In this document: in pieces, positions 11,559 through 53,565 of the stretch
Layout of the letters: the number at the start of each line of letters is the position of its first letter
Position numbering within the stretch: the first letter of the stretch is position 1
Source: Minisyncoccia bacterium
GTDB lineage: Bacteria; Patescibacteriota; Minisyncoccia; Phycocordibacterales; UBA1006
Direction of reading: 5' to 3'
Assembly (NCBI GenBank): GCA_044229075.1
Contig: JBGATS010000003.1
Span: forward strand, 12,372 to 76,371
Length of the DNA: 64,000 nt
Translations under genes and position numbers: made by a program
The notes under the pieces: generated by a model
Told to the model about the DNA's origin: nothing
Database searches by the model: none
The model's input: only the letters and a program-made list of their open reading frames with translations

Positions 11559-12470
11559 TTATAACAATTCATTTTTCAATTCCTCCACAATTTTCTTCGC
11601 ATCTTTGGACAATTTCTTCGGCATTTCAATATGCGTTCGGATCAAAAAATCTCCATTTCGCAAAAATCCTGCAGTGACACCCTTTCCTTTCAATTTGATC
11701 ACATGTCCCACCGGCATACATTCTGGAATTTCAATCATTTCTTTTCCGTCTAGTGTTTCAATTTCGATACTCTTTCCAAGTAATGCATCGACAAGTGACA
11801 CATGTAAATCCATTACCAAATTACTGCGTTCTTTACGAATGGTTGGATGTTTTTCTACAATCACGGTGATGATCAAATTCCCTGGGCGACCTTCACTTAC
11901 TACTTCTCCTGCACCGTCCATTTGTAATTGCTGTCCGTGTTCTACTCCAGCTGGAATAGTCACAGAAACTTTTTTCATTCCGTTTTGCTTACCATCACGA
12001 TAATCGGGAACATTAATTTCACGGGTAAATCCACGCACTGATTCTTTAAACGTCATATTCATCTGAACCTCGATGCTGCGACCTCTGCGGAATCGTCCAC
12101 CACCAAAACCGAATGCTGCACCGAACAAATCACCAAGATCAATATCTCCCATATCAAACTGCGCACCACCTCCCTGTTGTGCCTGTCGCATGATGTCTTC
12201 CCATGAAAAACCACCGAATCCGCCGCCGCCGAACGGATTTCCCTGTCCGCCGCCGAACTGTGGTCCACTTGATCCGAACTGGTCGTATTGTGCGCGTTTG
12301 TTTTTGTCAGAAAGTGTCTGGTAGGCTTCGTTGATTTCCTTAAATTTTTTGTCATCGCCTCCGTTTTTGTCTGGATGATGCTGATGTGCAAGTTTGCGAA
12401 AAGCAGCCTTGATTTCTGCTTCAGAGGCTTTTTTATCGACACCTAGGGTTTTGTAGTAGTCTTTGCTCAT
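11559..12470 (-). CDS. dnaJ: J-domain chaperone DnaJ/CbpA-type (J domain plus G/F-rich linker plus C-terminal substrate-binding domains; no CxxCxGxG zinc finger)
   Basis: YYKTLGVDKKASEAEIKAAFRKLAHQHHPDKN (HPD motif), a G/F-rich stretch, and only one Cys in the whole protein. Confidence 0.8.
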   Translation of the reverse strand: MSKDYYKTLGVDKKASEAEIKAAFRKLAHQHHPDKNGGDDKKFKEINEAYQTLSDKNKRAQYDQFGSSGPQFGGGQGNPFGGGGFGGFSWEDIMRQAQQGGGAQFDMGDIDLGDLFGAAFGFGGGRFRRGRSIEVQMNMTFKESVRGFTREINVPDYRDGKQNGMKKVSVTIPAGVEHGQQLQMDGAGEVVSEGRPGNLIITVIVEKHPTIRKERSNLVMDLHVSLVDALLGKSIEIETLDGKEMIEIPECMPVGHVIKLKGKGVTAGFLRNGDFLIRTHIEMPKKLSKDAKKIVEELKNELL

Positions 12471-12476
12471 AAAATT

Positions 12477-12582
12477 CAGTACTCCTCAGTCCTTCGGACA
12501 ACTCCTCTAAAAGAGGAGCCACTTCCAAACGTCGGGTGCTTTGCTCCTCTTGTAGAGGAGCTCCGCGAAGCGGTGAGGAGTA
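12477..12582. repeat. structured palindromic intergenic repeat element, copy A (about 106 nt, 3-prime terminus truncated by about 3 nt)
   Basis: cagtactcctcaGTCCttcgGGACaaCTCCTCTaaaAGAGGAGccacttccaaacgtcgggtgctttGCTCCTCTtgtAGAGGAGctCCGCgaaGCGGtgaggagta. Terminal inverted repeats GTACTCCTCA/TGAGGAGTAC and four internal hairpins. Sits between the DUF559 stop (3 nt away) and the dnaJ ATG (6 nt away). Confidence 0.85.
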
Positions 12583-12585
12583 AAT

Positions 12586-12939
12586 TTATCTTAAATATTC
12601 CTTAATCTTCATAATAACTCCATCAATCGATTGTAATACTTCATTATTTGAAAATCGAAGTACTGTATAATCCAAACTTTTCAAATAATTATCACGCACT
12701 GTATCATATTCCAATCCTTTTTCATAATAATGTTGTGATCCATCGAGTTCGATAATTAGTTTATATTTATGACAATAAAAATCTATAATATACGGACCGA
12801 TTCCAAACTGCCTGCGAAATATTACACCAAGTTGTTCATTTTTCAAGTATTTCCACAATAATCTTTCCTCTTTCGTACTTCTGTTACGAAGATCTTTTCT
12901 GCGATGTTTTAGAAGTGGATCATTGTGAATGAATTTCAT
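12586..12939 (-). CDS. DUF559-family protein (Vsr/restriction-endonuclease-like fold, 117 aa)
   Basis: IIDFYCHKYKLIIELDGSQH...DTVRDNYL...VLRFSNNEV matches the DUF559 / very-short-patch-repair endonuclease-like core. Confidence 0.7.
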   Translation of the reverse strand: MKFIHNDPLLKHRRKDLRNRSTKEERLLWKYLKNEQLGVIFRRQFGIGPYIIDFYCHKYKLIIELDGSQHYYEKGLEYDTVRDNYLKSLDYTVLRFSNNEVLQSIDGVIMKIKEYLR

Positions 12940-12984
12940 AAAGAATCTTGAATACAGTACTCCTAATTATTAAACAGTAGTATA

Positions 12985-13093
12985 CAGTACTCCTCAGTCC
13001 TTCGGACAGCTCCTCTAAGAGAGGAGCCACTTCCAAACGTCGAGTGCTTTGCTCCTCTCTTAGAGGAGCTCCGCGAAGCGGTGAGGAGTACTG
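12985..13093. repeat. structured palindromic intergenic repeat element, copy B (109 nt, complete)
   Basis: CAGTACTCCTCA...TGAGGAGTACTG, same internal hairpins as copy A (UUCG tetraloop hairpin, two GCTCCTCT-NNN-AGAGGAGC hairpins, CCGC-GAA-GCGG hairpin). A partial extra terminus tacagtactcct lies at 12953-12964. Confidence 0.85.
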
Positions 13094-13215
13094 AATTTGC
13101 TGAGGTTTCTCACCTCTCTACCAAACACGTCTTTCAACCTGTCCGGAAAGAAGATTGGACTTACTTGACAAGTATGATATTATTTGATATCATATTTTTA
13201 ATAAAATTAAATAAT

Positions 13216-13473
13216 ATGTCAAAATTTAAGTATTTTTTCTCGTTTTGTTTATGGATGATCTTTTGGTTTATTCTCATAAATAAGACAAGAGGGTCTATAG
13301 TGTATATGGACCAAGTTTATTTATTATTCTTTTTAATATGGGGTTTCTTAATTGGAGCCTTTGGAAATTGGTTTTACTTCTTTTTTGCTGACTTAATTAT
13401 GTTTGTTATTAGTCTAATAACAACATCAGGACGCGATCAACAACATATTAAATGGGCAGCTTGGAGAAAATAA
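13216..13473 (+). CDS. small hydrophobic protein (85 aa), hypothetical
   Basis: ATG at 13216 in frame with the track ORF 13081-13473. Two or three predicted TM helices. AT-rich. No homology recognised. Confidence 0.3.
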   Translation: MSKFKYFFSFCLWMIFWFILINKTRGSIVYMDQVYLLFFLIWGFLIGAFGNWFYFFFADLIMFVISLITTSGRDQQHIKWAAWRK

Positions 13474-13551: not shown

Positions 13552-15438
13552 TTATTTCCCTTCCTCAGCTCCCTCTTCTTTTGTTTCCTCTGTTGCTGAC
13601 TCAGATGCTGCATTACCCGCAGCATTTTTTTCTTGCTCAGCTTTCTGAATGATTTCGTAAATCTTCATCATTTCATCTGAAAGTGCAGATGTTGCAGAAT
13701 CAATTGCCGCTGCATCGTCTTTATCTTTCACATCCTTCAAGGTTGTGATTTTTTCGTTGATAGCAGTTTTGGTTGCATCATCCAATTTGTCAGCGTATTC
13801 TTTCAAAGATTTTTCTGCTGCAAAGATTGATGTTTCAGCCGTGTTTCGCTTATCCACCAAATCCTTTTTCTTTTCATCTTCCTCTTTGAATTTTTCTGCA
13901 TCTTCCTGCATTTTCTTGATATCTGCATCTGACAATCCTCCTCCTGATTGGATCGTAATTGACGCTTCCTTGTTAGTTGCTTTATCAGTTGCTTTTACAT
14001 TTAGGATTCCGTTTGCGTCGATATCAAATGTTACCTCGATCTGTGGAATTCCGCGTGGAGCTGGTGCGATATCGCCAAGGATAAACCGTCCGAGTGATTT
14101 GTTATCAGTCACCATCGGTCGTTCACCTTGAACGATATGAATGTCCACTGATGTTTGGTTGTCTGATGCAGTACTGAATACTTGTGATTTTGATGTTGGA
14201 ATCGTTGTGTTTCGCTCGATTAATTTTGTCGCTACGCCACCCATTGTTTCAATTCCAAGTGATAATGGAATTACATCGAGGAGAAGTACATCCTTCACGT
14301 CACCTTGTAATACTCCGGCCTGAACTGCAGCACCAAGAGCTACTACTTCATCCGGGTTGATGGTTCGGTTTGGTTCTTTTCCGAACAACTTCTTTACTTC
14401 TTCGACAATTTTTGGCATTCGAGTCTGTCCTCCAACCATGATTACTTCATCGATTTCACTCATTTTGAATGGTGAAGCCTCTACTGCGCACTTTGTAATT
14501 TCAATTGATCGATCGATGAATTCTGCAGCCAATTCCTCCAATTTACTGCGAGACATTTTCATCATCAAGTGTTGTGGCACGCCATCATTCTGCGCGATGA
14601 ACGGAATATTGATTTCAGTTTCAGTTGTTGTTGAAAGTTCATGTTTTGCTTTTTCTGCAGCTTCTTTTAATCGCTGTAGTGCAAGTACATCTTTTGTAAC
14701 ATCCAGCCCTGATTCCTTTTTAAATTCATCCCCAATCCATGCAACGATTTTTCGGTCGATGTCTTCACCTCCCATGTGCGCGTCTCCATCAGTAGATTTT
14801 ACCTCTACCAAGTCTGCTCCAACCTCGAGTACTGAAATATCGAATGTTCCACCTCCGAAGTCGTACACGGCAATTTTCTGGTCTTTTTTGGAATTGAATC
14901 CGTATGCCAATGCCGCTGCTGTTGGTTCGTTAATGATTCGCTTTACATCAAGTCCTGCAATTTTACCTGCGTTCACTGTCGCCTGTCGCTGTGCATCGTC
15001 AAAGTATGCAGGAACTGTAATAACAGCCTCTGTGATTTTCTCGCCAAGTTTTGCTTCCACATCCGCTTTGATCTTTGAAAGGATCATCGCAGAAATTTCT
15101 TCAGGTGATTTGTCCTCGCCTCCGAATTTCACCATCACGCGATCATCTGTTCCTTTTGAAATTTTAAACGGTGAATGCGGAATGTCTTTTGTTACGACTT
15201 CGTCACTGAATTTGTGACCCATGTATCGTTTGATTCCGAAAATTGTATTTTCTGGATTGGTAACCGCCTGACGTTTGGCTAATGCTCCGACCATTCGGTC
15301 ACCATTTTTTGCCTGCGCAATGATAGAAGGCGTTGTTCGTGCACCTTCTGTGTTTTCAATAATTTTTGGTTGACCACCCTCGATGATTGCTACCGCCGAG
15401 TTTGTGGTTCCCAAGTCGATTCCAATGATTTTTGACAT
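13552..15438 (-). CDS. dnaK: molecular chaperone DnaK (Hsp70)
   Basis: [17 protein letters not shown]...DLGGGTFD..., full Hsp70 motif set, 628 aa. Confidence 0.95.
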
Positions 15439-16003: not shown

Positions 16004-16112
16004 CTGTACTCCTCAGTCCTTCGGACAGCTCCTCTATAAGAGGAGCCACTTCCAAACGTGTAGTGCCTTGCTCCTCTTGTAGAGGAGCTCCGCGAAGCGG
16101 TGAGGAGTACTG
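16004..16112. repeat. structured palindromic intergenic repeat element, copy C (109 nt)
   Basis: ctGTACTCCTCAgtccttcggac...gctcctcttgtagaggagctccgcgaagcggTGAGGAGTACTG. Hairpin loops differ from copies A and B (ata vs aag/aaa) while the stems are preserved. Confidence 0.85.
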
Positions 16113-16274: not shown

Positions 16275-16823
16275 ATGTCTAAAAATAACGACTATTCCAA
16301 AAAAATATTGAAAATATTAGCCGAAAATAAAGCGGTTTCTTTCCCTGATCTGTCTGATAAGCTTATCAAGGACATGTCTGAAACCACCAAAAACGACCCA
16401 AAAAAGACACAATACGCCCTGAATCGGTCATTGCGCGGCTTGCATGAATCAGGACTTGTAGAGAGTCATTTTTCAGGTCAGAACGACTATGCCCGACTGA
16501 CCAAGGCCGGCAAACGAAAGGCCGTCAGCCTGCAATTAGAATCGGATTCTACCCTTGTTCCCAACTGGGATGGCCAGTGGCGAATCGTATTGCTCGACCT
16601 TCCGGAATCCCGAAAATCAGAACGCGAAGCATTGCGGTATCTTTTGAAAAAAGCAGGATTTGAGCTGTTGAAAAACTCGGCATGGATTTCCCCATTTCCC
16701 TATGAACATCTATTCATGAATATTAAAAAAGATTTGGGGCTGACGACCGAAATGATGGTCATGACGACCAATAGTCTGGATGCGGAAACAGAGGCAGAAT
16801 TGTTTAAGTTGTTTCAAAAATAA
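16275..16823 (+). CDS. PaaX-like transcriptional regulator (winged helix plus PaaX C-terminal-like domain)
   Basis: WDGQWRIVLLDLPESRKSEREALRYLLKKAGFELLKNSAWISPFP matches the PaaX_C signature (WxGxW..v.fd.pe..r..R..lr..L...GF..l..svwisP). Start taken at ATG 16275 (MSKNND...). Confidence 0.5.
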   Translation: MSKNNDYSKKILKILAENKAVSFPDLSDKLIKDMSETTKNDPKKTQYALNRSLRGLHESGLVESHFSGQNDYARLTKAGKRKAVSLQLESDSTLVPNWDGQWRIVLLDLPESRKSEREALRYLLKKAGFELLKNSAWISPFPYEHLFMNIKKDLGLTTEMMVMTTNSLDAETEAELFKLFQK

Positions 16824-38762: not shown

Positions 38763-41700
38763 TTATTCAGTAGGAGTATCCCCTGATCCACCAGAACCAG
38801 TGTTAGTCGGGGGAGGTGTTGTACCCCCTGATCCCGAATCTCCTGTTCCTGAAGTACTACTTGTCGGATCTGTAATATCTCCACCAGACGTGTCGCCAGT
38901 ACCAGTATCACCAGAAGGCGTAGAATCGCCATCTGTTCCAGTTCCTGTTGATGAAGTATCCCCACCACTAGGGGTAGATGATCCACCAGAAACAACTGTT
39001 CCTTGTCCATTCATCATTGATTCCAATTGGTCACCATTTACACAGTATTCAGATCCATCTGCTTTTTTCAAACAAATTTGTTCTGAACGAACCTTTTTCG
39101 CAAAGAGTTCATTAATTCCGTTTGTTGCACTCGCGAGCCAGTCACGGAGCTTGGTAACAAATGTTGAATCAGTTCCATCTGTGTTAAATTCAAAGTTCTC
39201 AATCTGATTAATATTTAGATCAAGCTCTTTGATTGCCGCGATAACAAATGGGATTGATGATGATTCATTAATAGCTAAATACCCGTCAGGATTAGTTACA
39301 ACACCTGCTGGAATTAATTGTTGAAATTCCTGTGCAAGGAAACCATCGTAATGAGTTCCTGTTCCATCCCCGATGAAATTATAATTCACCGGACGAAGTC
39401 CTGTAATTTTTGCAAGTGCATCTGCAGTATTGATATCCACTACATTTTCCTTGAGTCGTGCATCAGACGTACATGCCCAGTTTGCACCAGCACCAGGATT
39501 GAATGTACACACTCCGGCTGCAGTATTGTCATCAACTGTGATCAGATTCCCGTTTGGAGTCGTAGCAGAACCGATCGATACTAATGCTGATGTTGCTGCA
39601 CTATCAACTGTCAGTAATCCGCTTGTTGTTGTTGTGCCAATACCTAATCGTCCTGCAGCATCCAGTCGCATACGCTCTACACCTGCGGTACTGAATCCAA
39701 CAATATCAGCGCCCGGACTAAATATTCCTGTATTAGTATCTGCAGTCCAACTATACGCAGGTACAGCAGCAGTCCCAAGTCCTGTTAATTGAACACCACC
39801 TGTAGACGTTTCTTGAAGAAGTTTCACCCAAGATGTCCAAACTCCTCCATTTCGTCCACGCATAAAGATACCATTATTAACATTATTTGAATATGGAATA
39901 CCTAATTGGGTAGTATTACCAGTTCCATCTTTACTACTATATTCAAAGTTAAACGGATGATAGTAACTTCCTGATCCAGGACCATTTGTTGCGGTACCTA
40001 GAAGTAAGGTGTATCCCTGACCTGATCGTGAATTAGTAACATCATTCCAATCAACAACACCTGCTGTAGTTACCGCCCCAAAACCTCCTTGAATAATTCC
40101 ATTCACTTCAAGTTTTTGTGTTGGTGCTGCAAATCCTAATCCAAGATTTCCTGCTGCAGTAAGTGTCATTCGAGTCGCGCCTGATGTTTCAAAATTGAGA
40201 TTTTGAACATCATTCGTACCAAGTGTTGCTGCTGCTCCAAAACTATTTCCATTTTGGATAAACATACCAGTCGTTCCATTGATATCAAATTTACGAAGAT
40301 CACCATTTGCGTCTGAATAAACTAATCCATTCGTACCACCGAGAGCAAGTCCTGAAATTGATGTTCCTCCGAGTGAATTAAATCGAATGTTTGCAGTCCC
40401 TGCAGTACCTGCAACATGGAATAATTGTGATGGTGTTGTAGCACCAAGACCAATACCGACATTACCGCCATTTGGGTTAAACATCATTGGGTAATTAACC
40501 GCAAGTGTCCCCTGATTCGTTACCTGCATCCATGCACCATTAGCGCCATTGATACCCGTATCAATAACTACACCTGAAGCATCGCCAAATCGTGATACAT
40601 GTCCAGCACCTTGTACAGTTCCAGAAGTTGCGGCAAAACTTGAGCCGCTATCGTTTACAAATAATCGTGCAGTTGTAAGAGGTGTCGCACCAATACCAAA
40701 ATTACCAATAGTATCAAATGTTGCACGGGTCACACCAGCTGTTTCAAATCCAAGATTAAACAAGTCATTCGTACCGAGGGTTGCTGTTGTTCCAAAACTA
40801 TTTCCGTTTTGGATAAAGTCACCATTCGTAATACTTGCCATTGATCGTTTATACAATTCGCCGTTTGTATCTACAAACAATATTCCGTCATTTGCTCCCA
40901 TGGTATAGGCCGTAGTTATTGCCGGACCAGAAAGATGGGTAATACGTACATTTGGTGTTCCGGCTGCCGCTGTCTGAGCAACACCATTTACATGAAATTG
41001 ACGTGTAGGAGCAGTTGTACCGATACCTACATTCCCACCGTTAGGGTTAAGCATAAGTGGATATGTCAAAGACAAATCTCCAGTATTAGTTGCTTGAAGC
41101 CAGGTACCTGATCCTCCATTACCACCAATATCAAGTGTTGCGCTTGTCGCTGCGCGAAGTCGTGTAATAAATCCTGCAGATTGAGCAGTTCCTGAAGTAC
41201 TTGGGAATGCGTTTCCAGTTCCTACTACTTCTAGTTTTGCCTGTGGGATTGTGGTATTAATACCAAAATTACCACCTGCATCCAGTCGCATACGTTCTGT
41301 ACCATTAGTTGACCATGCTTGAATATCTGCGCCTGGACTCCACCAACCGTTGTTAGTATCCCCAACAAAACTATGTGATGGAGTACCAGCAATACCCAGT
41401 GCGGTAAACATACGTCCTGTAGTATCTATTTGGAATAAGTCACCGTTTCCTACGGTAAAGAGTGAAGCAGGTGTTGTATCACCAATACCTACAAACCCAC
41501 CAGCAGTAACACGCATACGTTCGGTGTTACTTGTTCGTGTGACAAAATCAACTGCATCAGTGGTACCAATAAAATTGGTTGTTGCAAGTGTTCCTGCATT
41601 TCCTGTTATCATCCAACCGTTATTAGCATTTGCCAGAGCAACCCAACCAGTGTTCGTTCCAAGACCTGAAGCCTTGTAATACATAATTCCATTAGTAATA

Positions 41701-44700
41701 TCATTTGCAATATCACCCACTGATCCAGTTACAAAAGCATTGGGGCTACTATTGGTAATAAATGTTTGATAATCACCCCCTTGGTTTGCAAGTGTTTCAA
41801 TTGGGATATTCATTGTAAGTCCACTATTTACATGTAATTTTGTAGCAGGGGTATTTGTTCCAATTCCTAAACGACTATTGGTATTATCCCAGAAGTATTG
41901 CGCATTGTTTTGTGAAAGTAGTCCTCCTGCACCTGCAAAGAATACTGATCCTGGGGTCATCGTCGCAAAAGTTGTATTTCCATTAAATGTCGCTGCACCT
42001 GCAAAGGTTTTTGCTCCAGCAAAGGTTTGTGTTCCTGTTGAGACGAGTCCTGGGAATGTTGCGTCCGCAGTCTGCATAAAGAGGTTTGTTCCAGAGATTG
42101 CAGCACCATTTGCAGATTTTGTAGTTCCATCAAGTGTTCCAATAGTACTCACTCCTGCTGTGATTGCAACTGATCCTGCAGCGGTAAGGCGCCCCTGCGC
42201 ATCTACCGTAAATGTTGGTATGTTAGTTGCAGATCCATATGAACCTGGAGTAACCGCAGTGTTTGCAAGACCTACGGTTGCCGTTGCATTTTCAGCGCCG
42301 GTACCTGTTACGGTAAGGCCTGTCCCAGAAAGAATGGTCGCAACATAGTTTCCGGTGGTGTCAGTACCCAAGGCTACTGCATCAGGCTGTACTACGGTTG
42401 CACCAAGCGTACCTCCGATATCACCCGCAAGGGTAAGTCCAGAGATAGGAGTACTTGAAGCAATTCCATTGACTGTTGAGGTAAGATTACCCGCAGCAAA
42501 AGAAAGAGTATTACTGTTAACAATAGGAGCCGTTACTGAAATACCGTTTACGACGGAGGTCAACGTGTTTGCCGATGACCCAAGAGTATGAGTCATTGCT
42601 ATTGATCCAGCTGCAGTGAGACGTCCTTTACTATCTACGGTAAATGTTGGAATACTCGTAGCTGATCCATATACTCCAGCAGTTACTGGTGTGTTTGAAA
42701 GAGTAAGTGATGTACCTGTTCCCAATACTGCACCGGTTCCACCTGTTATAGAAATATCAGAGGTGGTTGAGGTAAGGTTTCCACCAGCAAGTGATGAAAG
42801 AGCTATAGATCCTGCACCTGTTAATCGTCCTTGTGCATCTACTGTAAAGGTAGGAATAGATGATGTTGAACCATAAGATCCAGCAACTACTCCTGTGTTG
42901 GTAAGAGAGATGGTTCGATCTGCTGAAAGATTTCCTCCCCCTGTGAGACCAGTTCCTGTGAGTATTTGTCGAGTACTATCTACTTTTGCATTAAAGGTTG
43001 CCCAATCAGTAGGTGTAAGAAGACCTCGATTTACAGCCGTAGCAGAAGGAAGATTTAAAGTATGTACCCCTGCTGCAGTTGTAATATTTGCATTGGTTCC
43101 TAGAGATCCAATAACAATACTTTGGTTTGGATTAGTATCACCATTAATAGAGGTAATAACTCCTAATGATGAAAGCGGTTGCCATGAATCAGTTCCTCCA
43201 GCACCACCAGAAACCAAGACCATACCTGATGATCCACGTGATCCTGATGGGGCAAGTCCTCCGGTACCATTCATACCATAATACATATCACCATTACTAT
43301 CGATGATATATTTGTTCGCATCGTTAGTTCCTAGGATTACAGCATTACCCCAATCACCAACAAGGTTTGAACCAATCGTAATTGCCCCGTTTTTAACAAG
43401 ATTATTTCCAAAACCAAATGCTGCTGTACCTGACACACCTGATCCTGAATTATTAAGACCAATCATTACAGAGGTATCAGAATTATCAATTCCATTACCA
43501 TATCCAAATTGGTATATTAATTTACCATTATCCTTACTTCCATTATCCATACCAATTTGTGTTTGGTATGAAGATCCTCCAGAAATACTGTTTCCTTGCC
43601 CAAATTGTTGCGTATTTTGTCCATCAGTACTATTTAATTCACCTACTTGATAAGTACTTGTTCCTGATGAACTGTTGTTGTCACCAAAAATCATATTCAA
43701 CGAACCTGACATTGATGTACCTGTACCAAACGCAAGATTCTGTCCTGCAGTATCTACAATCGTTGGTTGGTTAAGTGTTCCTCCAAGGATAATTTCTGTT
43801 CCTGTATTGGTAAGTCCATTATTCACTGCAACTAATCCAGTAACATCAGACCATGTAGGTGAATTACCTGCTCCATTAGAAACAAGTATCTGTCCACTGT
43901 TTCCTGCTGTTCCACTTGCAATAAGATCATTTAAAAGAATGACTGAATCATTGAATGATTTATCACCACCAAATGTTTGAGCACTTGTCGTAACAAGACC
44001 TCGCGCAAGAGTTGAAGCGTTAGGAATATTAAGAGTTAGAGTTCCTCCAAGAGATGCAGGAGATCCAGAAACATTCACATCAGTTCCCGTTGTTCCTGTT
44101 GCAAGACCAATCGTCCCTAATCCAGAAAGAGGCGTGGTTGCTGCAACTCCGTTAATAGTAGAAACAAGGTTCCCACCTGCAATAGCAAGCGTATTCGCAT
44201 TAATAATAGGAGCTGATGTAGAAACACCATCAACAACCGATGTCATAGTATTTACTAATGAACCCAATGTATTCGTAAGAGTACGATTCCCAGCAAGGGT
44301 AAGTCGTCCTTGGGCATCAACGGTAAAGCTCGCAATAGACCCAGGAGCTCCATACGAACCAGCAGTAACGCCCGTGTTATTCAATCCTACAGTAATATCA
44401 CCAAGTCCTACCAAGCGGTTAGTAAGTGCTCCTCCAAGTGTCATTCCTGTTCCTTGGATAATTGATCCAGCTGATCCAGTCGTTGCACAGGTAGGGCATG
44501 AAATTTCACCGGTTGTGTTGTTGTACGCAATAGGTGCAAGTCCTGAGAGTGCTGCACGCGCTCGTGCATTGGTGAAATAGAGATTTCCGTTTTCAGGAAC
44601 AACTGAAGTGTCAAGTGTCTGCCAAGTTTTATCACCACGCCAGTATTGCGCCGTAGTTCCTGCAACAATTGCAGGTTCTTTGCTATTGAAATTAATCCAA

Positions 44701-47700
44701 TCCGCAGGTGAAAGAGCTCCACGATTTATGTTTGAAGCGGTTGGAATATTAATCGTATGAGTTGATCCAGATGAAGCAATATTTACATCAGTTCCAGATG
44801 TTCCTGCTGCGAGAGTTTGTGCAGTTGCAGTAAGTCCGTTCAGTGATGTAATCGCAAGTGATGAAATAGGAGTCTGCCCTGCAAGCGTAAGACGTCCCTG
44901 AGCATCAACGGTGAAGGTTGGAATATTTCCTGTAGTTCCATATGACCCAGCTGTCACACCTGTAGTCGTAAGGTCAAAATTATTTGCGGTACGAGCAATA
45001 CCACCACTGGCAGTCATAATGTCAGTTACCGTATTTCCTGTACGTGAAAGTCCACCGGTAAAGGTAAGTACATTTTCCTTGTTATTAAATGTCGTCCAAT
45101 CTGTACTTGTTAAGAGTCCGTTTTGAGCATTAGTTGCATTTTGAATATCGAGCGTTGTCCCTGCACCAAGTACTGCCCCTGATCCTCCACTGATAGTGAT
45201 CGCACTATTTGGAGTTGTAAAGTTTGATCCAGACATCGCTGAAAGTGCTGTTGACCCTGCTGCAGTGAGACGACCTTTTGCATCCACAGTAAAATTAGGA
45301 ATCGCTGTAGTCGTTCCATATGATCCAGGGGTTACTGTAGTGTTCGAGAGTGTAAGCGTTGCACCAGAACCAAGCACGGCACCTGTTCCGCCAGTTACTG
45401 CAATATCAGCTGTTGTTGATGCAAGATTTGATCCAGACATCGCTGAAAGTGCTGTTGATGATGCAAGTGTAACACGACCATCTTGGTCGACAGTAAATTG
45501 TGGGATTGATGACGCACCACCATACACACCTGCAGTAACCCCAGAACTTGTAAGTTCGGCAGGCCCTACTACGTCATTATTGAGTTGGATATTTCCAAGA
45601 TTTCCAGAAACATCACCTGCTACAGCAATAGTGTTTGTTGAAACAGTTCCAGCAGCGGTAAGACGCCCTTGTGCATCTACAGTAATAAGTGGGATACTTG
45701 TTGCAGATCCGTATGAACCAGCAGTAACGCCCGTGTTATTCAATCCTACAGTAATATCACCAAGTCCTACCAAGCGGTTAGTAAGTGCTCCTCCAAGTGT
45801 CATACCTGTTCCCTGGATAATTGATCCAGCTGATCCAGTCGTTGCACAGGTAGGACATGAAATTTCACCTGTTGTTGAGTTATATGAAATTGGAGTAATT
45901 GCAGAAAGAGCTGCGCGTGCGCGAGCGTTGGTAAAGTAGAGATTTACTGTTCCTTCTGTAAGGTCATCCGTTGTTTTTGTAGCTAATGCTGCGTCGAAAC
46001 GAACTGGTGTCCAATACAAATTAGTTCCTTCGGGCACTACGGTTGTATTGAGAGTTTGCCATGTTTTATCGCCACGCCAGTATTGTGCAGTAGTTCCTGG
46101 TACAATTGCGTTTTCCTTGTTATTAAAGGTATTCCAATCAGTTGCGAGAAGAAGTCCGTTCTGGGTTGGTCCTGCAGATTGAATATCAATCGTTGCACCT
46201 GATCCAAGTACTGCACCTGCTCCCCCGGTGATAGTAACTGCAGTGTTAGGTGAAGTAAGGTTTGATCCAGTAAGTGAAGAAAGTGGTGTTGAACCAGCAT
46301 TGGTTAATCGTCCCTGAGCATCCACAGTGAAGAGTGGGATTGAAGAGGTTGAGCCATATGTTCCAGCAGTGACACCTGTAGAAGCCAAGTCAATAGTGGT
46401 TGCAGCATTTTCTATCCCAGAACCAGTCACGATCAACGCACCACTTGCAGGGGCAAGGGTTGCAATATAGTTTCCAGTCGTGTCAGTAGCAAGTGCTACC
46501 GCATCAGTTCCAATGACGGTTGCACCAAGGGTTCCAGTTACATCACCTGCAAGTGCCATTGATGAAGTGCTTGACCATGCAGGAATACCTGTTGGACTTA
46601 CACTTAATACTTGTCCAGTAGTTCCAATAGGAAGTGCAGAGAGCGTGTTTGCACCTGAAGCAAAGAGGATATCACCGAGGGTATATGAAGAAAGTCCCGT
46701 TCCCCCCTTTGTTTCATCGAGTACTCCTGAAATATTATTGAGTGAAAGTGCTGACTCATTAACGTCAACAGAAAATGGTTGTAATACCGCACCAATTGGT
46801 GTACCGCTGAGGATGACCTTACTTGATCCAGCAGTTACATCATATGTTCCATTTGCTGCCATAATTGCAGCAGCATCAAAACGAGTCCAGTCGGTAGAGG
46901 TAAGTAAACCATTTTGAGTAGCAGTTGCGTTTTGTATATTGATAGTTACTCCACTACCAAGTACTGCACCTGATCCGCCGGTGATAGAAATAGCACTATT
47001 CGGAGTAGTGATATTTGATCCTGACATTGCAGTAAGTGCCACTGATCCAGCAAGACCTAGTCGTCCTTTCGCATCAACTGTAAATGTTGGGATGGATGTA
47101 TTTGATCCATATGAACCTGCGGTTACGCCAGTACTTGAAAGAGTGACCGCTGTTCCTGTTGGGTTGAGTACCGCTCCTGCCCCACCTATTACCAAAATAT
47201 CTGAAGTAGTAGAAGTAAACGATCCACCCGATCCAGATGTCACACATGATGGACAAGAAATTTCACCTGTCGCATTACTGTAAACAATCGGACTGGTTGA
47301 GTAGAGTGCATTACGTGCACGAGTATTTGTGAAATACAAATTAGATCCTTCAGGTACTACTGAAGTATCAAGGTTTTGCCAAGTTTTATCACCGCGCAAA
47401 TATTGCGCTGTTGTTCCTCCTGAAAGCGCATTATCCAACGCATCAAATCGCTGCCAATCGAGTGCAGTAAGGAGTCCGCGATTAGCTGATGAAGCTGATG
47501 GGATATTAAACGTGTGCACACCTGCAACTGTAGACACGTTAAAATCGGTACCTGTAGTACCGGTTGTAAATGTTTGGATTGATGCCGTATCACCATTGAG
47601 TGAGGTGATACCTCCACCAGCAGCCCCAGGAATGGTTACGGTAACCGTCCCACCCACGTTGGTTGCGGTAACCCCTGCTCCGACAAATTGCAGTTTCAAT

Positions 47701-50488: not shown

Positions 50489-50528
50489 AAAAAGCGAACC
50501 AATCTCCCAGAGTTGTTTCGCTTTTTTT
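50489..50528. terminator. bidirectional rho-independent terminator
   Basis: aaaaagcgaacc-aatctcccagag-ttgtttcgcttttttt (one mismatch in the stem). The T-run overlaps the helicase stop codon. Confidence 0.5.
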
Positions 50529-53500
50529 ATTTCCCCAAAATCTTATTCATCCTCGCACAATACTCACATTCTGTACTTTTGCCAAACGGTTTTGAATTAC
50601 ACGGTCGATCTACCCATTCACCTGACATTAACAAATTTTGATAATCTGCGATGTCGCGAATCAATAATTCAATTTGTTCTCCGTTTACATGCGTTCGATA
50701 GAGCGCATTTTTTTGTTTCAAGTCTTCTTCCAGGAAAAGTAATCGCGATTCAGTTACATCGTTCCCTTCTGATCCACGAATTAGGTACGAATACATCGCA
50801 AGCTGTCGCATCATTCCGGACAATCGATTTTCATCATCCAACTTTTCAATCACACCAGTTGTCTTGCTTGATCCGGTCTTGAAATCCGTCACAATAATTG
50901 TGCCGCCTGTCCCGCTAATGGCGGGATCAGGAAATCGCTCGGTAAGATCAATCTTTCCATACATGGTCAGGTTTGGAAATTGTTTGTCGCGATAGGTCAG
51001 TGACCGTTCCGCCACGCGATCTTTTGCCAGATTCGCATAGTATCCTGTTATCCATGAATTCACTGCAGCCAGTGCGTCATGCGCAAGTCGTGTGTGTTCA
51101 TTTTTATCCGTGATTCCCTCGTCATGAAGTTCCTTGTCTATGTATACTTTAATATCCGATTCATTCGGAAGTGTGCTTGATTTCAAGATATATTCAATCG
51201 TACTGTGAACCGCAGAACCCAGCGCAAGCGATACAGACTTCAGTTCTGGCAGTTTCAGGAAATTTCTGAAATACCATTTCCATGGACATTCATAAAAATT
51301 ATTGAGCATCGATACGGAAATCTTTGTTTCAGTAAATCGTTCTGTTACAAACTGTTTAATATCTTCAATGAGCACGTCTGAAGCTCCTCCCTCTCCTAGT
51401 GTAGGAGAGGGCCGGGGTGAGGTCGTTGCATAATTGCGCGGATCATTTTGAATGATAGACGCTTCGTTTTCGTCGGCACTGAGCTTTACAAAGTACTCGT
51501 CCGACAAATCCTCAATAATATGCGCAAGTGTAAGCACTGCACCGTCATCGCGCTTTGCGGCATAACTGATCGTGCAGAATTGCTTTGCACGAGTGATTGC
51601 AACATATAATTCTCGTTTTGCCGTCAGTATGTCACGTTCTGCAATTTTTTCTTTGACTGATTCTGGAAGTGTGAACGCACTTGCCTTTTCACTCATTAAA
51701 ATTTCCTCGTTCATATGACCAATCCAAACATGATCGTATTCCAATCCTTTTGATTTGTGCAAGGTCATTACTCGAATTCCCGATCTGTTTCCAAGTCGTG
51801 CGATTTCCACCGTGTTTCCGTAATTGTTCAACCGCTTGAAATAATCCAAAAAGTTTGAAAGATTTCCCGTCGGGTTTTTCTCTGTCCATGCGGTCGATGC
51901 GTGAATGAAACTGCGAACAATCTCAATTGATTTCAATAGCTCATCATGACTGTTTGATTGATCAATCAATGATTCATTTCCAACGAAACTGACTGTGTGC
52001 ATTACATCGGTGTGCGACAATAATTCTATCCATGACTGTAATTTCTTTCCAAACACTGCAATAGCGTGTTCGCCTGCAAACAATCCATCATCGGCTCCAT
52101 AATGTACTAAATCATCAATCGAAAGATTGTCCATTTTTTTAATACTTTTCAAAAACTTGTGGGCCTGCATTGGTGGCACAAGACTTGTTTTATCAAGTAA
52201 TGCTTCTGCAAGTAATACATTATTAAAAGGATTTGCAATGATGCCAAGTATACGAAGCAAACTCTGAGTTTCTGCTGTATCGAGGAGTGAAACATTTTGT
52301 TCTGAAATAACAGGAAGTCCAAGAGATCGAAGTGCAGCGGCAGCTGCTTTTGCGTGGCGATTCTTTGGAACCAGTAATGCGCACTCATCAGCGGATCCTC
52401 CGTTTGCAATAACAGATTTGAAATATAAACCTGCGCCGATAATTTCGTCGCGATTGTAATGAAATTCTGAAAGTTTCACTAAATCATTTCCGTCTTTATT
52501 ACTATTCAATACCTCATTCGTAACCGAACTTTTTAGCAATTCATCTGCAAGGTTTAAAATTGGCGCAGTTGATCGGTAATTTTCTGTCAGTGTGATCATT
52601 TTTGCATTTCCAAAAGCCGTTTTGAAATCTGTAAAGTAACCAATGTTTGCACCAGAGAATCCATAAATCAACTGGCGATCATCACCTACTACGAACAAAT
52701 CTGGACGTTCAACATCTGACCAAACTGCTTTTAAAAATTGGTTCTGCACACCACTTGAGTCTTGGTGTTCATCAACCAACACATACTGATGATTTTCTCG
52801 TAGGTCGGCACGAACATCTTCGAATTGCTCTGCAAGTTGCACCGCAAATTCCAAAACATCATCATAATCCATAAATCCGCGATCGTGCTTCAAACTTTCA
52901 TACTGTTCGTAAAATGCAACCACTTCGCGTGTTCGATTTAAACTCTCAATTTTCTTCTCGACTTCTTTTTTTAATTGACCTTTTGATTCACCACGCGTGG
53001 AAATACTTATGGGATCATCTTGTAGGGATTTGATATCTTTTTCAACTTCACCCAGAAACTGCTGCGGTGACATACGTTCACGTTTCAAGATCGAAATTAA
53101 CCCGCGCAAATCATGAAAATATTTTGATGGATCAGTTCGTGGTCGCAAATAATCCCAAGTTCCATTTTGAAGAAGTTCATCCACAAGAACAATTGCTTCG
53201 GCATCATCAAGCAGTTTTGGAGAACTAATAAAATCAAGCAGATTATAATATTTCTCGATAAGTCCAATAGCAAAACTGTGGAATGTTGTGATTCGCACAT
53301 CGCGTGCACGCGTTCCAATATATCCTTCCAAACGCTGTCGCATCGCCGAAACACCTGAACGTGTAAATGTGAGACATAAAATACCTGATGGCGGAATATC
53401 CGTTTTGACCAGAATATTCGCAATACGCAGTGTTAATACTTGAGTCTTTCCTGTTCCTGGACCTGCTACTACCATGACTGGACCGTCGATAGTGTCTACT

Positions 53501-53565
53501 GCGAGTTGTTGTGCAGTATTGAGCATACGATATGCAGATTGAAATTGATTCCATTCTAAATTCAT
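50527..53565 (-). CDS. UvrD/PcrA-family SF1 helicase fused to a C-terminal RecB/Cas4-like PD-(D/E)xK nuclease domain with Cys cluster (AddA-like helicase-nuclease)
   Basis: AGPGTGKTQVLTLRIANIL (Walker A, motif I). YVLVDEHQDSSGVQ (DExQ, motif II). The C-terminal domain has an N-terminal Cys (YECPWKWY), then ...DFKTG...YSYL... (PD-(D/E)xK-like), then a terminal C...CEYCA. The four Cys are typical of AddB/Cas4 Fe-S nucleases. Confidence 0.8.
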   Translation of the reverse strand: MNLEWNQFQSAYRMLNTAQQLAVDTIDGPVMVVAGPGTGKTQVLTLRIANILVKTDIPPSGILCLTFTRSGVSAMRQRLEGYIGTRARDVRITTFHSFAIGLIEKYYNLLDFISSPKLLDDAEAIVLVDELLQNGTWDYLRPRTDPSKYFHDLRGLISILKRERMSPQQFLGEVEKDIKSLQDDPISISTRGESKGQLKKEVEKKIESLNRTREVVAFYEQYESLKHDRGFMDYDDVLEFAVQLAEQFEDVRADLRENHQYVLVDEHQDSSGVQNQFLKAVWSDVERPDLFVVGDDRQLIYGFSGANIGYFTDFKTAFGNAKMITLTENYRSTAPILNLADELLKSSVTNEVLNSNKDGNDLVKLSEFHYNRDEIIGAGLYFKSVIANGGSADECALLVPKNRHAKAAAAALRSLGLPVISEQNVSLLDTAETQSLLRILGIIANPFNNVLLAEALLDKTSLVPPMQAHKFLKSIKKMDNLSIDDLVHYGADDGLFAGEHAIAVFGKKLQSWIELLSHTDVMHTVSFVGNESLIDQSNSHDELLKSIEIVRSFIHASTAWTEKNPTGNLSNFLDYFKRLNNYGNTVEIARLGNRSGIRVMTLHKSKGLEYDHVWIGHMNEEILMSEKASAFTLPESVKEKIAERDILTAKRELYVAITRAKQFCTISYAAKRDDGAVLTLAHIIEDLSDEYFVKLSADENEASIIQNDPRNYATTSPRPSPTLGEGGASDVLIEDIKQFVTERFTETKISVSMLNNFYECPWKWYFRNFLKLPELKSVSLALGSAVHSTIEYILKSSTLPNESDIKVYIDKELHDEGITDKNEHTRLAHDALAAVNSWITGYYANLAKDRVAERSLTYRDKQFPNLTMYGKIDLTERFPDPAISGTGGTIIVTDFKTGSSKTTGVIEKLDDENRLSGMMRQLAMYSYLIRGSEGNDVTESRLLFLEEDLKQKNALYRTHVNGEQIELLIRDIADYQNLLMSGEWVDRPCNSKPFGKSTECEYCARMNKILGK

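What the first reader, a model, noticed from the sequence alone, without database searches (positions are those of the whole stretch)
12477..13093. DUF559 endonuclease-like gene inserted between dnaK and dnaJ, precisely flanked by direct copies of the structured repeat
The canonical dnaK-dnaJ pair is separated by ~1.1 kb containing a DUF559 (Vsr/REase-fold) gene. Repeat copy B lies 46 nt upstream of its start. Repeat copy A begins 3 nt after its stop. A partial extra terminus (tacagtactcct) sits at 12953-12964. This looks like a selfish or homing-type endonuclease cassette that invaded, or duplicated, the repeat. DUF559 proteins are uncharacterised, and this linkage to a specific structured repeat suggests the repeat may be its recognition or homing site.
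Basis: partly seen in the sequence, partly recalled or inferred. Interest (0 to 1): 0.65.

Follow-up and report, generated by a model that had tools for sequence, protein, structure and literature searches.

The report
DUF559 nuclease with cognate palindromic repeats
A small nuclease gene of unknown function sits between two heat-shock genes, bracketed by hairpin-forming repeats; the same pairing recurs across many bacterial phyla, so this nuclease family may be the missing partner of the unexplained "BoxC/triplex-motif" repeats.

Summary
A DUF559 (Vsr-fold) gene at 12586-12939(-) lies between dnaK and dnaJ. Two about 106-nt near-perfect palindromes flank it, a 13-nt extra terminus lies upstream, and a third copy sits 3 kb away.

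It is not a recent insertion. Relatives down to 60% DnaJ identity carry DUF559 at the same site. One relative (L126) has an empty site. Another (L125) has a GIY-YIG nuclease cassette there instead.

DUF559 is under purifying selection (dN/dS 0.13-0.23). Its synonymous divergence is 2-4 times lower than that of dnaK or dnaJ, so the cassette was exchanged laterally at this locus. Repeat orientation flips between close relatives.

The link is general. Of 79 diverse DUF559 genes, 68 have the same pyrimidine-arm/purine-arm hairpin modules within 250 nt, against 3 of 127 control intergenic segments. Isolates agree: E. coli ycjD, N. gonorrhoeae, Synechocystis, Deinococcus, Azospirillum.

The repeats have the architecture of BoxC/PIT/"TM" intrastrand-triplex motifs, known since the 1990s with no associated enzyme.

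Best reading: a chromosomal selfish or domesticated nuclease with cognate palindromic repeats, organised like REP-RAYT and behaving like a homing endonuclease. Cleavage is untested.

The parts
12477..12582 (.). Repeat copy A. It lies between the DUF559 stop codon and the dnaJ start. Its terminal inverted repeat next to dnaJ, on the + strand, is CAGTACTCCTCA. The end next to DUF559 is truncated (...TGAGGAGTA, lacking CTG). Its GAGGAG block lies 11 nt before the dnaJ ATG.
12586..12939 (-). DUF559 gene (117 aa), a Vsr-type PD-(D/E)XK-fold nuclease. E64, D66, H70, D79 and R95 are invariant across 29 homologues. The last 3 codons are unique to this lineage.
12952..12964 (.). Partial extra terminus (ATACAGTACTCCT), a 13-nt duplicate of the end of copy B. 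It is conserved in relatives L001, L002 and L007 and absent in L003.
12985..13093 (.). Repeat copy B, complete. Its parts in order are: outer stem P1 (TACTCCTCA/TGAGGAGTA); small hairpin H1 (GTCCTTCGGAC); H2 (GCTCCTCTaagAGAGGAGC); an asymmetric centre; H3 (GCTCCTCTcttAGAGGAGC); H4 (CCGCGAAGCGG).
13102..13155 (-). Conserved structured leader upstream of the cassette and of dnaJ. The hairpin is kept by compensatory changes in L126, L127 and L129. The cassette sits immediately 3' of it. In the empty-site relative it is followed directly by dnaJ.
13194..13222 (-). Promoter-like site (TTGACA-17-AAAAAT) that could drive leader-DUF559-dnaJ. A divergent promoter-like site at 13165-13193(+) faces the 85-aa ORF.
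   Evidence: consensus match only
16004..16112 (.). Repeat copy C, a solo copy with no DUF559 beside it. It lies between the PaaX_M-like gene (16275-16823) and the small ORFs upstream of dnaK. L002 has a copy at the same position.
51389..51423 (+). Half element of the BoxC/TM_ECO type (CCCTCTCCTagtgtAGGAGAGGGccgGGGTGAGGT). It lies in frame inside the 1012-aa helicase-like ORF 50527-53565(-) and is translated as ..SPRPSPTLGEGG..
   Evidence: consensus from PMC4666352

Best explanation
The locus is a chromosomal selfish or semi-domesticated nuclease module. It consists of a small free-standing Vsr-fold (DUF559) endonuclease gene and its cognate palindromic repeats. Each repeat is a pair of inverted 'pyrimidine block - purine block - purine block' halves, the architecture of BoxC/PIT/TM triplex motifs.

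Shown:
- The gene-repeat association holds across phyla.
- The nuclease is conserved under purifying selection with intact catalytic residues.
- Solo repeats occur elsewhere, including in frame inside genes.
- The same site in relatives is empty, occupied by DUF559, or occupied by another nuclease cassette.
- The cassette was exchanged laterally more recently than its flanks.
- Repeats flip orientation and are mosaics.

Inferred:
- The nuclease nicks or cuts at or near the repeat, possibly when the repeat is extruded as a hairpin or cruciform.
- The break is repaired by recombination with another copy: a sister chromosome, another locus, or incoming DNA from a relative.
- Repair from an ORF-bearing template copies the gene into the site, which is homing-like.
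- Repair from a solo copy homogenises the repeats. Because the termini are palindromic, it can invert them.

In this window the module sits in the dnaJ leader. It is probably co-transcribed with dnaJ.
For: 1. Association. 68 of 79 diverse DUF559 genes have perfect pyrimidine-first hairpins within 250 nt, at 3.86 per kb. The density is 0.06 per kb beyond 600 nt and 0.29 per kb in far intergenic DNA, where 3 of 127 segments have one.

2. The same architecture is found in Bacteroidales (L037, flanked on both sides), E. coli ycjD, and N. gonorrhoeae, Synechocystis, Deinococcus (29-bp terminal inverted repeats) and Azospirillum.

3. Site polymorphism. L126 is empty, L125 holds a GIY-YIG cassette, and L127-L129 hold DUF559.

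4. Selection and exchange. dN/dS is 0.13-0.23. Window against L001: the proportion of synonymous sites that differ (pS) is 0.104 for DUF559 and 0.392 for dnaK, Fisher p=2e-6. Window against L002: 0.296 against 0.639 (dnaJ), 0.590 (grpE) and 0.422 (dnaK). The DUF559 comparison with L002 is a mosaic, 95% identical in the 5' half and 81% in the 3' half.

5. Orientation of orthologous repeats differs among the window, L001, L002 and L007.

6. Fold. AlphaFold2 pLDDT is 88. The best characterised match is the homing endonuclease I-Bth0305I (Foldseek E=2e-4; profile E=8e-5).

7. Catalytic E/D/H/D residues are invariant.

8. Published work reports that TM loci are unusually unstable and that no transposase was found near them (PMC4666352). 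It also reports that DUF559 genes are enriched among predicted inversion targets (PMC9881135).
Against: - No biochemical evidence exists for cleavage or binding.
- The position of the ORF relative to the repeat halves is not fixed. It may be upstream only, inside one element, between two elements, or between half elements. A simple mobile unit should not vary this way.
- Most solo repeats have no DUF559 nearby (30 of 33 loci).
- The gene is single-copy and chromosomal. It occurs in 2 of 50,697 phage records and 42 of 72,556 plasmid records, and at a median of one copy in 3378 of 5426 E. coli genomes.
- It has co-diverged with dnaJ over long periods, which fits domestication as well as selfishness.
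- Low synonymous divergence could come from ordinary homologous recombination of a segment, with no role for the nuclease.
- The 79 genes include some near-duplicate loci, so the effective sample is smaller.
Confidence: 0.55

Rival explanations
1. True IS-like transposon. DUF559 is the transposase-equivalent of an element bounded by the palindromic halves, and the ORF-less about 100-nt copies are its MITEs, moved by cut-and-paste.
For: Some loci show the ORF enclosed by inverted halves. Deinococcus has 29-bp terminal inverted repeats inside the hpa operon, Synechocystis has the ORF inside a DUF1156 gene, and L116 and L119 are similar. Solo copies sit inside coding genes in frame, as MITE-like elements do.
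Against: In the window and L129 the halves next to the ORF have the opposite polarity. I could not identify a target-site duplication (sequence inspection). Lone PD-(D/E)XK nucleases are not known to catalyse strand transfer (established knowledge: TnsA needs TnsB). The gene is single-copy per genome, in E. coli at a median of 1.
Confidence: 0.15
2. The repeats are cis-acting RNA or DNA expression modules. They could be hairpins that stabilise or process mRNA, ribosome-binding-site (Shine-Dalgarno) sequestration that controls translation of a potentially toxic nuclease, or heat-shock control of dnaJ. In this reading there is no nuclease-repeat interaction.
For: All three full copies in the window lie in the grpE-dnaK-dnaJ cluster. 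In many loci the 3' strand of the outer stem (GGAGG-type) ends about 4-5 nt before the DUF559 ATG. Copy A places GAGGAG 11 nt before the dnaJ ATG. The hairpins are very stable.
Against: The same family sits at unrelated loci, for example next to rplS in L043 and inside ORFs. Orientation relative to the genes flips. The empty-site relative expresses dnaJ without it. PIT elements showed no promoter or terminator activity, according to PMC4666352 citing Maher's group. At -54 to -73 kcal/mol the hairpin is too stable to act as a thermosensor (inference).
Confidence: 0.15
3. Coincidental co-location. DUF559 is an ordinary repair nuclease, and the palindromes are independent elements that accumulate in the same recombination-prone intergenic hot spots.
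For: The dnaK-dnaJ spacer is clearly a hot spot. It has a variable small ORF slot, GIY-YIG cassettes and an empty site. Most solo repeats lack DUF559.
Against: 86% of DUF559 genes have such hairpins against 2.4% of control intergenic segments. The pairing recurs in seven phyla at unrelated loci. GIY-YIG cassettes at the same hot spot carry a different repeat.
Confidence: 0.1

Closest known systems
BoxC / PIT (potential intrastrand triplex) / TM_ECO repeats of E. coli, Synechocystis and H. influenzae (PMC4666352)
   Same: Each half has a pyrimidine block, a loop, a purine block, a loop and a second purine block. Halves often pair up in inverted configuration. The elements are mostly intergenic, widespread, and linked to local genome instability. 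A canonical TM_ECO lies 168 nt from E. coli ycjD. A near-consensus type-B half lies in this window at 51389-51423.
   Different: Copies A-C use a CTCCTCT/AGAGGAG/GAGGAG core instead of CCCTCNCCC/GGGNGAGGG. They carry a 13-nt mini-hairpin (CCGCGAAGCGG or GTCCTTCGGAC) where TM_ECO has a 3-nt second loop. The published work reports no associated enzyme; here a nuclease gene is linked to them.
REP/REPIN elements and their RAYT genes
   Same: A single-copy, chromosomal, vertically inherited nuclease-type gene is flanked by its own family of short palindromic repeats, which are otherwise dispersed as solo copies.
   Different: RAYTs are HUH/Y1 transposases of the IS200/IS605 type. DUF559 is a PD-(D/E)XK (Vsr-like) nuclease. 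The repeats are longer composite palindromes with homopurine/homopyrimidine arms.
Free-standing homing endonuclease genes (T4 Seg/Mob) and I-Bth0305I (Vsr-like EDxHD family, PDB 3R3P)
   Same: A small nuclease ORF lies between conserved genes. The site is present or absent among relatives. The ORF shows a more recent common ancestry than its flanks. The fold matches the I-Bth0305I catalytic domain.
   Different: The gene is chromosomal rather than phage- or intron-borne. It has no separate DNA-binding domain beyond about 35 N-terminal residues. It has dedicated palindromic repeats and solo copies. Cleavage of an empty allele has not been shown.
Correia elements, other MITEs, and Rickettsia palindromic elements
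   Same: Elements of about 100-150 nt with terminal inverted repeats fold into long hairpins, can be co-transcribed, and can sit in frame inside ORFs.
   Different: No target-site duplication was identified, no classical transposase partner is known, and the arms are homopurine/homopyrimidine.
Vsr (very short patch repair endonuclease)
   Same: They share the same fold superfamily and catalytic architecture.
   Different: The window protein does not match the Vsr Pfam family. Foldseek to 1VSR gives only E=0.1. No cytosine methyltransferase gene lies beside it.

Membership tests
DUF559 (Pfam PF04480) | Matches the family HMM above the gathering score | tested here: met
   E=1.2e-34, 118.8 bits against a cut-off of 20.6, covering profile positions 4-108 of 109. 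NCBIfam PRK09767 (the YcjD equivalog) gives 79.5 bits, below its equivalog cut-off of 218. PDB 3HRL matches at E=1.8e-18.
DUF559 (Pfam PF04480) | PD-(D/E)XK / Vsr-type catalytic residues are conserved | tested here: met
   E64, D66, H70, D79 and R95 are invariant in 29 homologues. The model has pLDDT 88 and an alpha/beta core. Activity itself was not tested.
Vsr repair endonuclease | Matches the Vsr family (PF03852) and is partnered with a Dcm-type cytosine methyltransferase | tested here: not met
   The Pfam scan lists DUF559, MTES_1575 and RAP, not Vsr. 1VSR matches only at E=0.098. The neighbours are dnaK, dnaJ and a small ORF.
Free-standing homing endonuclease gene | Nuclease domain is homologous to a characterised homing endonuclease | tested here: met
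   I-Bth0305I catalytic domain 3R3P: Foldseek E=2.4e-4, TM-score 0.65 (query) / 0.77 (target). Profile search E=8.3e-5.
Free-standing homing endonuclease gene | Present or absent at one conserved site among related genomes | tested here: met
   L126 has dnaK, 86 nt, then dnaJ, with no DUF559 in 16.9 kb. L125 has GIY-YIG at the same point. L001-L010 and L127-L129 are occupied.
Free-standing homing endonuclease gene | The gene is younger than its flanks (lateral spread with co-conversion) | tested here: met
   The proportion of synonymous sites that differ is 0.104 for DUF559 against 0.392 for dnaK (window against L001, p=2e-6). It is 0.296 against 0.42-0.64 for window against L002, with a mosaic tract.
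Free-standing homing endonuclease gene | The enzyme cleaves the allele that lacks the gene, near the insertion point | not testable with these tools
   This needs purified protein and an empty-site substrate of the L126 type.
BoxC / PIT / TM_ECO | Consensus CCCTCNCCC-N3-6-GGGNGAGGG-N3-GGGNGAGGG | tested here: not met
   Copies A-C have CTCCTCT-N3-AGAGGAG-N13-GAGGAG. The element at 51389-51423 differs from the consensus at 3 positions, 2 of them compensatory. E. coli L124 5206-5240 matches exactly.
BoxC / PIT / TM_ECO | Pyrimidine block, complementary purine block, then a mirror-repeat purine block that could act as a third strand; halves often in inverted pairs | tested here: met
   Direct reading of the sequence shows CTCCTC / GAGGAG / GAGGAG in each half, with two inverted halves per element. 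Triplex formation itself was not tested.
REP-RAYT system | The associated protein is an HUH/Y1 (IS200/IS605-type) transposase | tested here: not met
   The protein is DUF559/PD-(D/E)XK. The resemblance is in organisation only.
MITE | Terminal inverted repeats plus a target-site duplication and a cognate transposase | tested here: inconclusive
   12-nt terminal inverted repeats are present. No consistent duplication appears at the three copies. No transposase is known.
Any Rfam family | Match at the gathering score | tested here: not met
   Only tRNAs reach threshold in the window. The repeats give only sub-threshold miRNA-hairpin matches. Nothing matched in 20 related loci.

The most novel reading that the evidence does not exclude
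Small stand-alone DUF559 proteins, including E. coli YcjD and N. gonorrhoeae NGO0050, are the cognate nucleases of the BoxC/PIT/triplex-motif palindromic repeats found across bacteria. They recognise the folded or duplex repeat and drive its gene conversion, inversion and spread. This would be a second system organised like REP-RAYT, built on a PD-(D/E)XK nuclease, and it would explain a repeat class that has lacked a partner enzyme for 30 years.
Probability: 0.35. Interest if true: 0.85.

Novelty: new variant of a known kind. Interest (0 to 1): 0.72.

Why it matters
DUF559 is a very large protein family with no assigned function. It includes a conserved E. coli K-12 gene (ycjD) and a crystallised gonococcal protein.

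BoxC/PIT/TM repeats have been known since the 1990s. They are widespread and linked to genome instability. The main study states that no mobility enzyme was ever found near them (PMC4666352).

A robust cross-phylum physical linkage between the two yields a hypothesis that can be tested at once in E. coli, with YcjD and BoxC DNA. It would also explain the in-frame 'PSP..GEG'-type insertions in proteins and local rearrangement hot spots.

I found no paper making this link in the searchable library. That is not proof that none exists.

Tried and rejected
- **Rfam** at gathering and permissive thresholds on the window and 20 loci found no family; the repeats gave only miRNA-like hairpin noise.
- **CIRCE/HrcA operator idea.** The centre of the repeat reads GCCACTT-N9-GAGTGCT, a faint likeness to TTAGCACTC-N9-GAGTGCTAA. 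The centre is the least conserved part and differs in copy C, L002 and L043, so I dropped it.
- **RNA thermometer for dnaJ.** The hairpin is far too stable, and empty-site relatives lack it.
- **Exact-sequence look-ups** of the window's DUF559 and DnaK were not on record, so the source genome itself could not be surveyed for all copies.
- **Defence system.** PADLOC gave only weak hits with E above 1e-3; the best was a 'homing endonuclease' model at E=0.0017.
- **Phage origin.** Only 2 of 50,697 phage records have a homologue.
- **Local versus long-range pairing** of the repeat could not be separated. The long hairpin is 94.6% paired and the local hairpins 95.3%. The long hairpin has slightly more double changes, but there are only 8 sequences.
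- **Target-site duplication** search by eye was inconclusive.
- One Pfam call and one pattern search failed on input errors.
- The naive ungapped dnaJ dN/dS was wrong and was redone with an alignment.
Full report
**1. The observation**

- dnaJ (11559-12470, minus strand; J domain plus C-terminal domain, no zinc finger) and dnaK (13552-15438, minus) are 1081 nt apart.
- Between them lies a 117-aa ORF, 12586-12939(-). It matches Pfam DUF559 at E=1.2e-34.
- Copy A of the repeat (12477-12582) ends 3 nt from the stop codon.
- Copy B (12985-13093) begins 46 nt upstream of the ATG.
- The 12-nt partial terminus is at 12953-12964.
- A third copy, C, lies at 16004-16112 beside a PaaX_M-like gene, with no DUF559.
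- A 31-mer of the repeat occurs 3 times against 0 expected.
- The copies are 91-94% identical.
- Each copy folds into a long hairpin of -53 to -73 kcal/mol, z = -6.6 to -10.2, on either strand.
- The spacer also holds an 85-aa ORF on the plus strand (13216-13473), divergent promoter-like sites, and a conserved leader hairpin (about 13102-13155).

**2. Anatomy of the repeat**

Each copy is a composite palindrome. In order it contains:
- an outer stem P1 (TACTCCTCA ... TGAGGAGTA, extended to CAGTAC/GTACTG);
- a small hairpin H1 (GTCCTTCGGAC);
- H2 (GCTCCTCT-aag-AGAGGAGC);
- an asymmetric centre;
- H3 (GCTCCTCT-ctt-AGAGGAGC);
- a small hairpin H4 (CCGCGAAGCGG).

Each half is therefore a pyrimidine block, its complementary purine block, and a second, mirror-symmetric purine block.

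I aligned eight related elements. The arm-to-arm long hairpin is 94.6% paired, with 7 pairs changed on both sides. These include T-A to C-G in P1 and between H2 and H3. The local-hairpin alternative is 95.3% paired with 4 such pairs. The palindrome is conserved by compensatory change, but the two folds cannot be separated with so few sequences. No Rfam family matches.

**3. Relatives at the same locus**

The window's exact proteins are not in the collection. Homologues gave syntenic contigs.

| Locus | Identity to window | State of the dnaK-dnaJ site |
|---|---|---|
| L001 | DUF559 96% | DUF559 present |
| L002-L005 | DUF559 85% | DUF559 present |
| L006-L010 | DUF559 80% | DUF559 present |
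| L127/L128 | DnaJ 66%, DUF559 71% | DUF559 present |
| L129 | DnaJ 60%, DUF559 69% | DUF559 present |
| L126 | DnaJ 81% | empty: dnaK, 86 nt with only the leader hairpin, dnaJ; no DUF559 in 16.9 kb |
| L125 | DnaJ 91% | GIY-YIG ORF (Pfam 3.9e-17) with its own inverted repeats (TGTCATTCCGGA...) |

In L125 the GIY-YIG ORF starts within a few nucleotides of the same point after the leader. Further GIY-YIG genes lie downstream of dnaJ in L125 and L129. The slot between the dnaK terminator and the leader holds a different small ORF in every lineage, none with a Pfam match.

Repeat orientation, read in the direction of the genes, varies:

| Genome | Upstream copy | Downstream copy |
|---|---|---|
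| window | CCGC-side first | CCGC-side first |
| L001 | CCGC-side first | GTCC-side first |
| L002 | GTCC-side first | GTCC-side first |
| L007 | GTCC-side first | CCGC-side first |
| L129 | inner half only | inner half only |
| L127 | 'inside-out' pair of halves | none |

L002, L003 and L007 carry mosaics of CTCCTC-type and CCCCTC-type blocks.

**4. Rates of evolution**

- DUF559 is under purifying selection, with dN/dS 0.13-0.23.
- Its synonymous divergence is lower than that of its neighbours. Below, pS is the proportion of synonymous sites that differ.
  - Window against L001: pS 0.104 (67 synonymous sites) against 0.392 for dnaK (262 sites), Fisher p=2.4e-6. Nucleotide identity is 96.3% for DUF559 and 89.5% for dnaK.
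  - Window against L002: pS 0.296 against 0.639 (dnaJ), 0.590 (grpE) and 0.422 (dnaK), p=1.9e-6. The 5' 177 nt of DUF559 are 95% identical and the rest 81%.
- The last three codons of the window gene are unique. This coincides with the truncated, re-oriented copy A.
- At greater depth (L127, L129), DUF559 and DnaJ have diverged to similar degrees.
- I read this as long residence at the site, with recent lateral exchange or gene conversion of the cassette among close lineages.

**5. Generality of the association**

Starting from the repeat:
- A scan of one genome per species with a 21-mer from the repeat (TCCGCGAAGCGGTGAGGRGTA) found 33 loci. They come from Bacteroidaceae/Bacteroidales, Saccharibacteria, a Clostridia MAG and an unnamed bin.
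- All have the same modular layout.
- Three have DUF559 within the stretch held.
  - In L037 the gene is flanked by two direct copies.
  - In L012 it lies in frame inside a wecB-like ORF, between CCTCCCCT...GGGGAGG hairpins.

Starting from the protein:
- 80 metagenomic loci encoding diverse DUF559 proteins (42-60% identity) were fetched.
- Perfect hairpins with an all-pyrimidine 5' arm of at least 7 nt occur at 3.86 per kb within 250 nt of the gene. They are present at 68 of 79 genes, upstream at 55 and downstream at 29.
- The density is 0.06 per kb beyond 600 nt.
- It is 0.29 per kb in far intergenic DNA, where 3 of 127 segments have one.
- Some loci are near-duplicates, so the effective sample is smaller than 79.

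Three arrangements recur:
- a complete element ending 4-5 nt before the ATG;
- the ORF inside one element, between H2 and H3;
- the ORF between two elements.

Isolate genomes agree:
- E. coli ycjD is 40% identical to the window protein. It has a degenerate motif at its stop codon and an exact TM_ECO 168 nt downstream.
- The gene for N. gonorrhoeae NGO0050, the crystallised protein, has direct repeats on both sides.
- In Synechocystis B12 the ORF sits inside an element within a DUF1156 gene.
- In Deinococcus proteolyticus it has 29-bp terminal inverted repeats inside the hpa operon.
- In Azospirillum a double element lies directly upstream.

**6. What is already known**

- The repeats have the architecture of BoxC / PIT / TM_ECO motifs.
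- Holder et al. (PMC4666352) give the consensus CCCTCNCCC-N3-6-GGGNGAGGG-N3-GGGNGAGGG. They count 23 copies in K-12, five of them as inverted pairs, and occurrences in more than 260 genomes. They demonstrate triplex formation in vitro and a link to locus instability. They state that no transposase or integrase was ever found nearby.
- From memory, unverified: BoxC was first noted upstream of envM (fabI), which is next to ycjD.
- DUF559 genes are enriched (odds ratio 14) among predicted programmed-inversion targets (PMC9881135).
- In E. coli, ycjD occupies the sapF-fabI site in lineages that lack eefRABCD (PMC12817139).
- Searches for DUF559, ycjD, intrastrand triplex plus endonuclease, PIT elements, and Vsr-like plus repeats found no paper linking the nuclease to the repeats.

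**7. The protein**

- E64, D66, H70, D79 and R95 are invariant in 29 homologues.
- The AlphaFold2 model has pLDDT 88.
- Its best structural matches are 3HRL (an uncharacterised DUF559 protein), then the catalytic domain of homing endonuclease I-Bth0305I (E=2.4e-4). Vsr itself scores only E=0.1.
- A sequence profile also finds I-Bth0305I, at E=8.3e-5.
- The family is chromosomal. It occurs in 2 of 50,697 phage records and 42 of 72,556 plasmid records, most of them chromids. It is single-copy in 3378 of 5426 E. coli genomes.

**8. Interpretation**

Several things are shown:
- a specific, cross-phylum gene-repeat association;
- an intact, selected nuclease;
- solo copies, including the in-frame TM half inside the window's helicase-like ORF (51389-51423);
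- site polymorphism, with an empty site and an alternative nuclease cassette;
- lateral exchange;
- flipping and mosaicism of the repeats.

The mechanism is inferred. The nuclease would cut at or near the repeat. Recombinational repair from another copy would then spread or homogenise the cassette and the repeats. The palindromic termini would allow inversion. The organisation is like REP-RAYT, and the behaviour is like that of a free-standing homing endonuclease.

The variable position of the ORF relative to the repeat halves is not explained by any simple model. It is the main unresolved point.

Three rivals are less well supported but not excluded: a true transposon with MITE derivatives, purely cis-regulatory hairpins, and coincidental co-location in a hot spot.

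**9. Verdict**

- The idea of a recent precise insertion is not supported.
- The repeat class is known. The link to DUF559 appears to be new and can be tested directly in E. coli.

Noticed in passing
window 51389-51423 (inside ORF 50527-53565, minus strand): A BoxC/TM_ECO-like half element (type B, CCG loop) lies in frame inside a 1012-aa UvrD/AddA-like helicase ORF. It is translated as ..TSPRPSPTLGEGGAS.., which resembles the in-frame palindromic-element insertions of Rickettsia.
   Followed up: partly
window 13102-13155 (minus strand); L126 7930-7975; L127 7455-7512; L129 7465-7520: A conserved structured leader lies upstream of dnaJ, and of DUF559 where present. A 10-11 bp hairpin is kept by compensatory changes and is followed by TAGAGGTGAGAAACCTC. 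No Rfam match. It could be a heat-shock or processing element.
   Followed up: partly
window 13216-13473(+); L001 1252-1515; L002 9488-9805; L007 1465-1779; L125 9284-9472; L127 7134-7400; L129 6824-7393: The slot between the dnaK terminator and the leader holds a different small ORF on the opposite strand in every lineage. None has a Pfam match. All appear to use a conserved TTGACA box that overlaps the leader region.
   Followed up: partly
L125 9605-9965, L125 10919-11248, L129 8979-9266: Small GIY-YIG nuclease ORFs have their own hairpin-containing inverted repeats (TGTCATTCCGGActtgaTCCGGAATCCAGGGT ...). They occupy the same site as DUF559 or the site just after dnaJ. This looks like a parallel nuclease-plus-repeat cassette family.
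   Followed up: partly
L012 5400-5900: In a Bacteroidaceae MAG, a DUF559 ORF with flanking CCTCCCCT..GGGGAGG hairpins lies in frame inside a UDP-GlcNAc 2-epimerase-like (wecB-like) gene, identified by eye from the translation. In Synechocystis B12 (L130) a DUF559 ORF similarly splits a DUF1156 gene.
   Followed up: no
L011-L043 compared with window 13069-13090: An exact 21-mer (TCCGCGAAGCGGTGAGGRGTA) of non-coding repeat is shared between Patescibacteria, Bacteroidaceae and a Clostridia MAG. This implies either a strong shared constraint or recent transfer across phyla.
   Followed up: no
window 16275-16823(+) and its orthologues in L002, L125-L129: A PaaX_M (Cas2-like domain) winged-helix protein gene is conserved between grpE and dnaK in all relatives, divergent from dnaK. 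No hrcA is seen in the cluster. It might be the local heat-shock regulator.
   Followed up: no
window 11559-12470: The DnaJ here has a J domain and a C-terminal domain but no zinc-finger domain (303 aa), so it is CbpA-like. The same holds in all close relatives.
   Followed up: no
window 39600-47450: Large families of diverged internal direct repeats (D1-D7 and others, units of 55-268 nt) suggest one or more giant repetitive surface-protein genes.
   Followed up: no
E. coli collection (L124): ycjD is present in 3378 of 5426 complete E. coli genomes, almost always as a single chromosomal copy. Published work reports that it alternates with the eefRABCD operon at the sapF-fabI site.
   Followed up: partly
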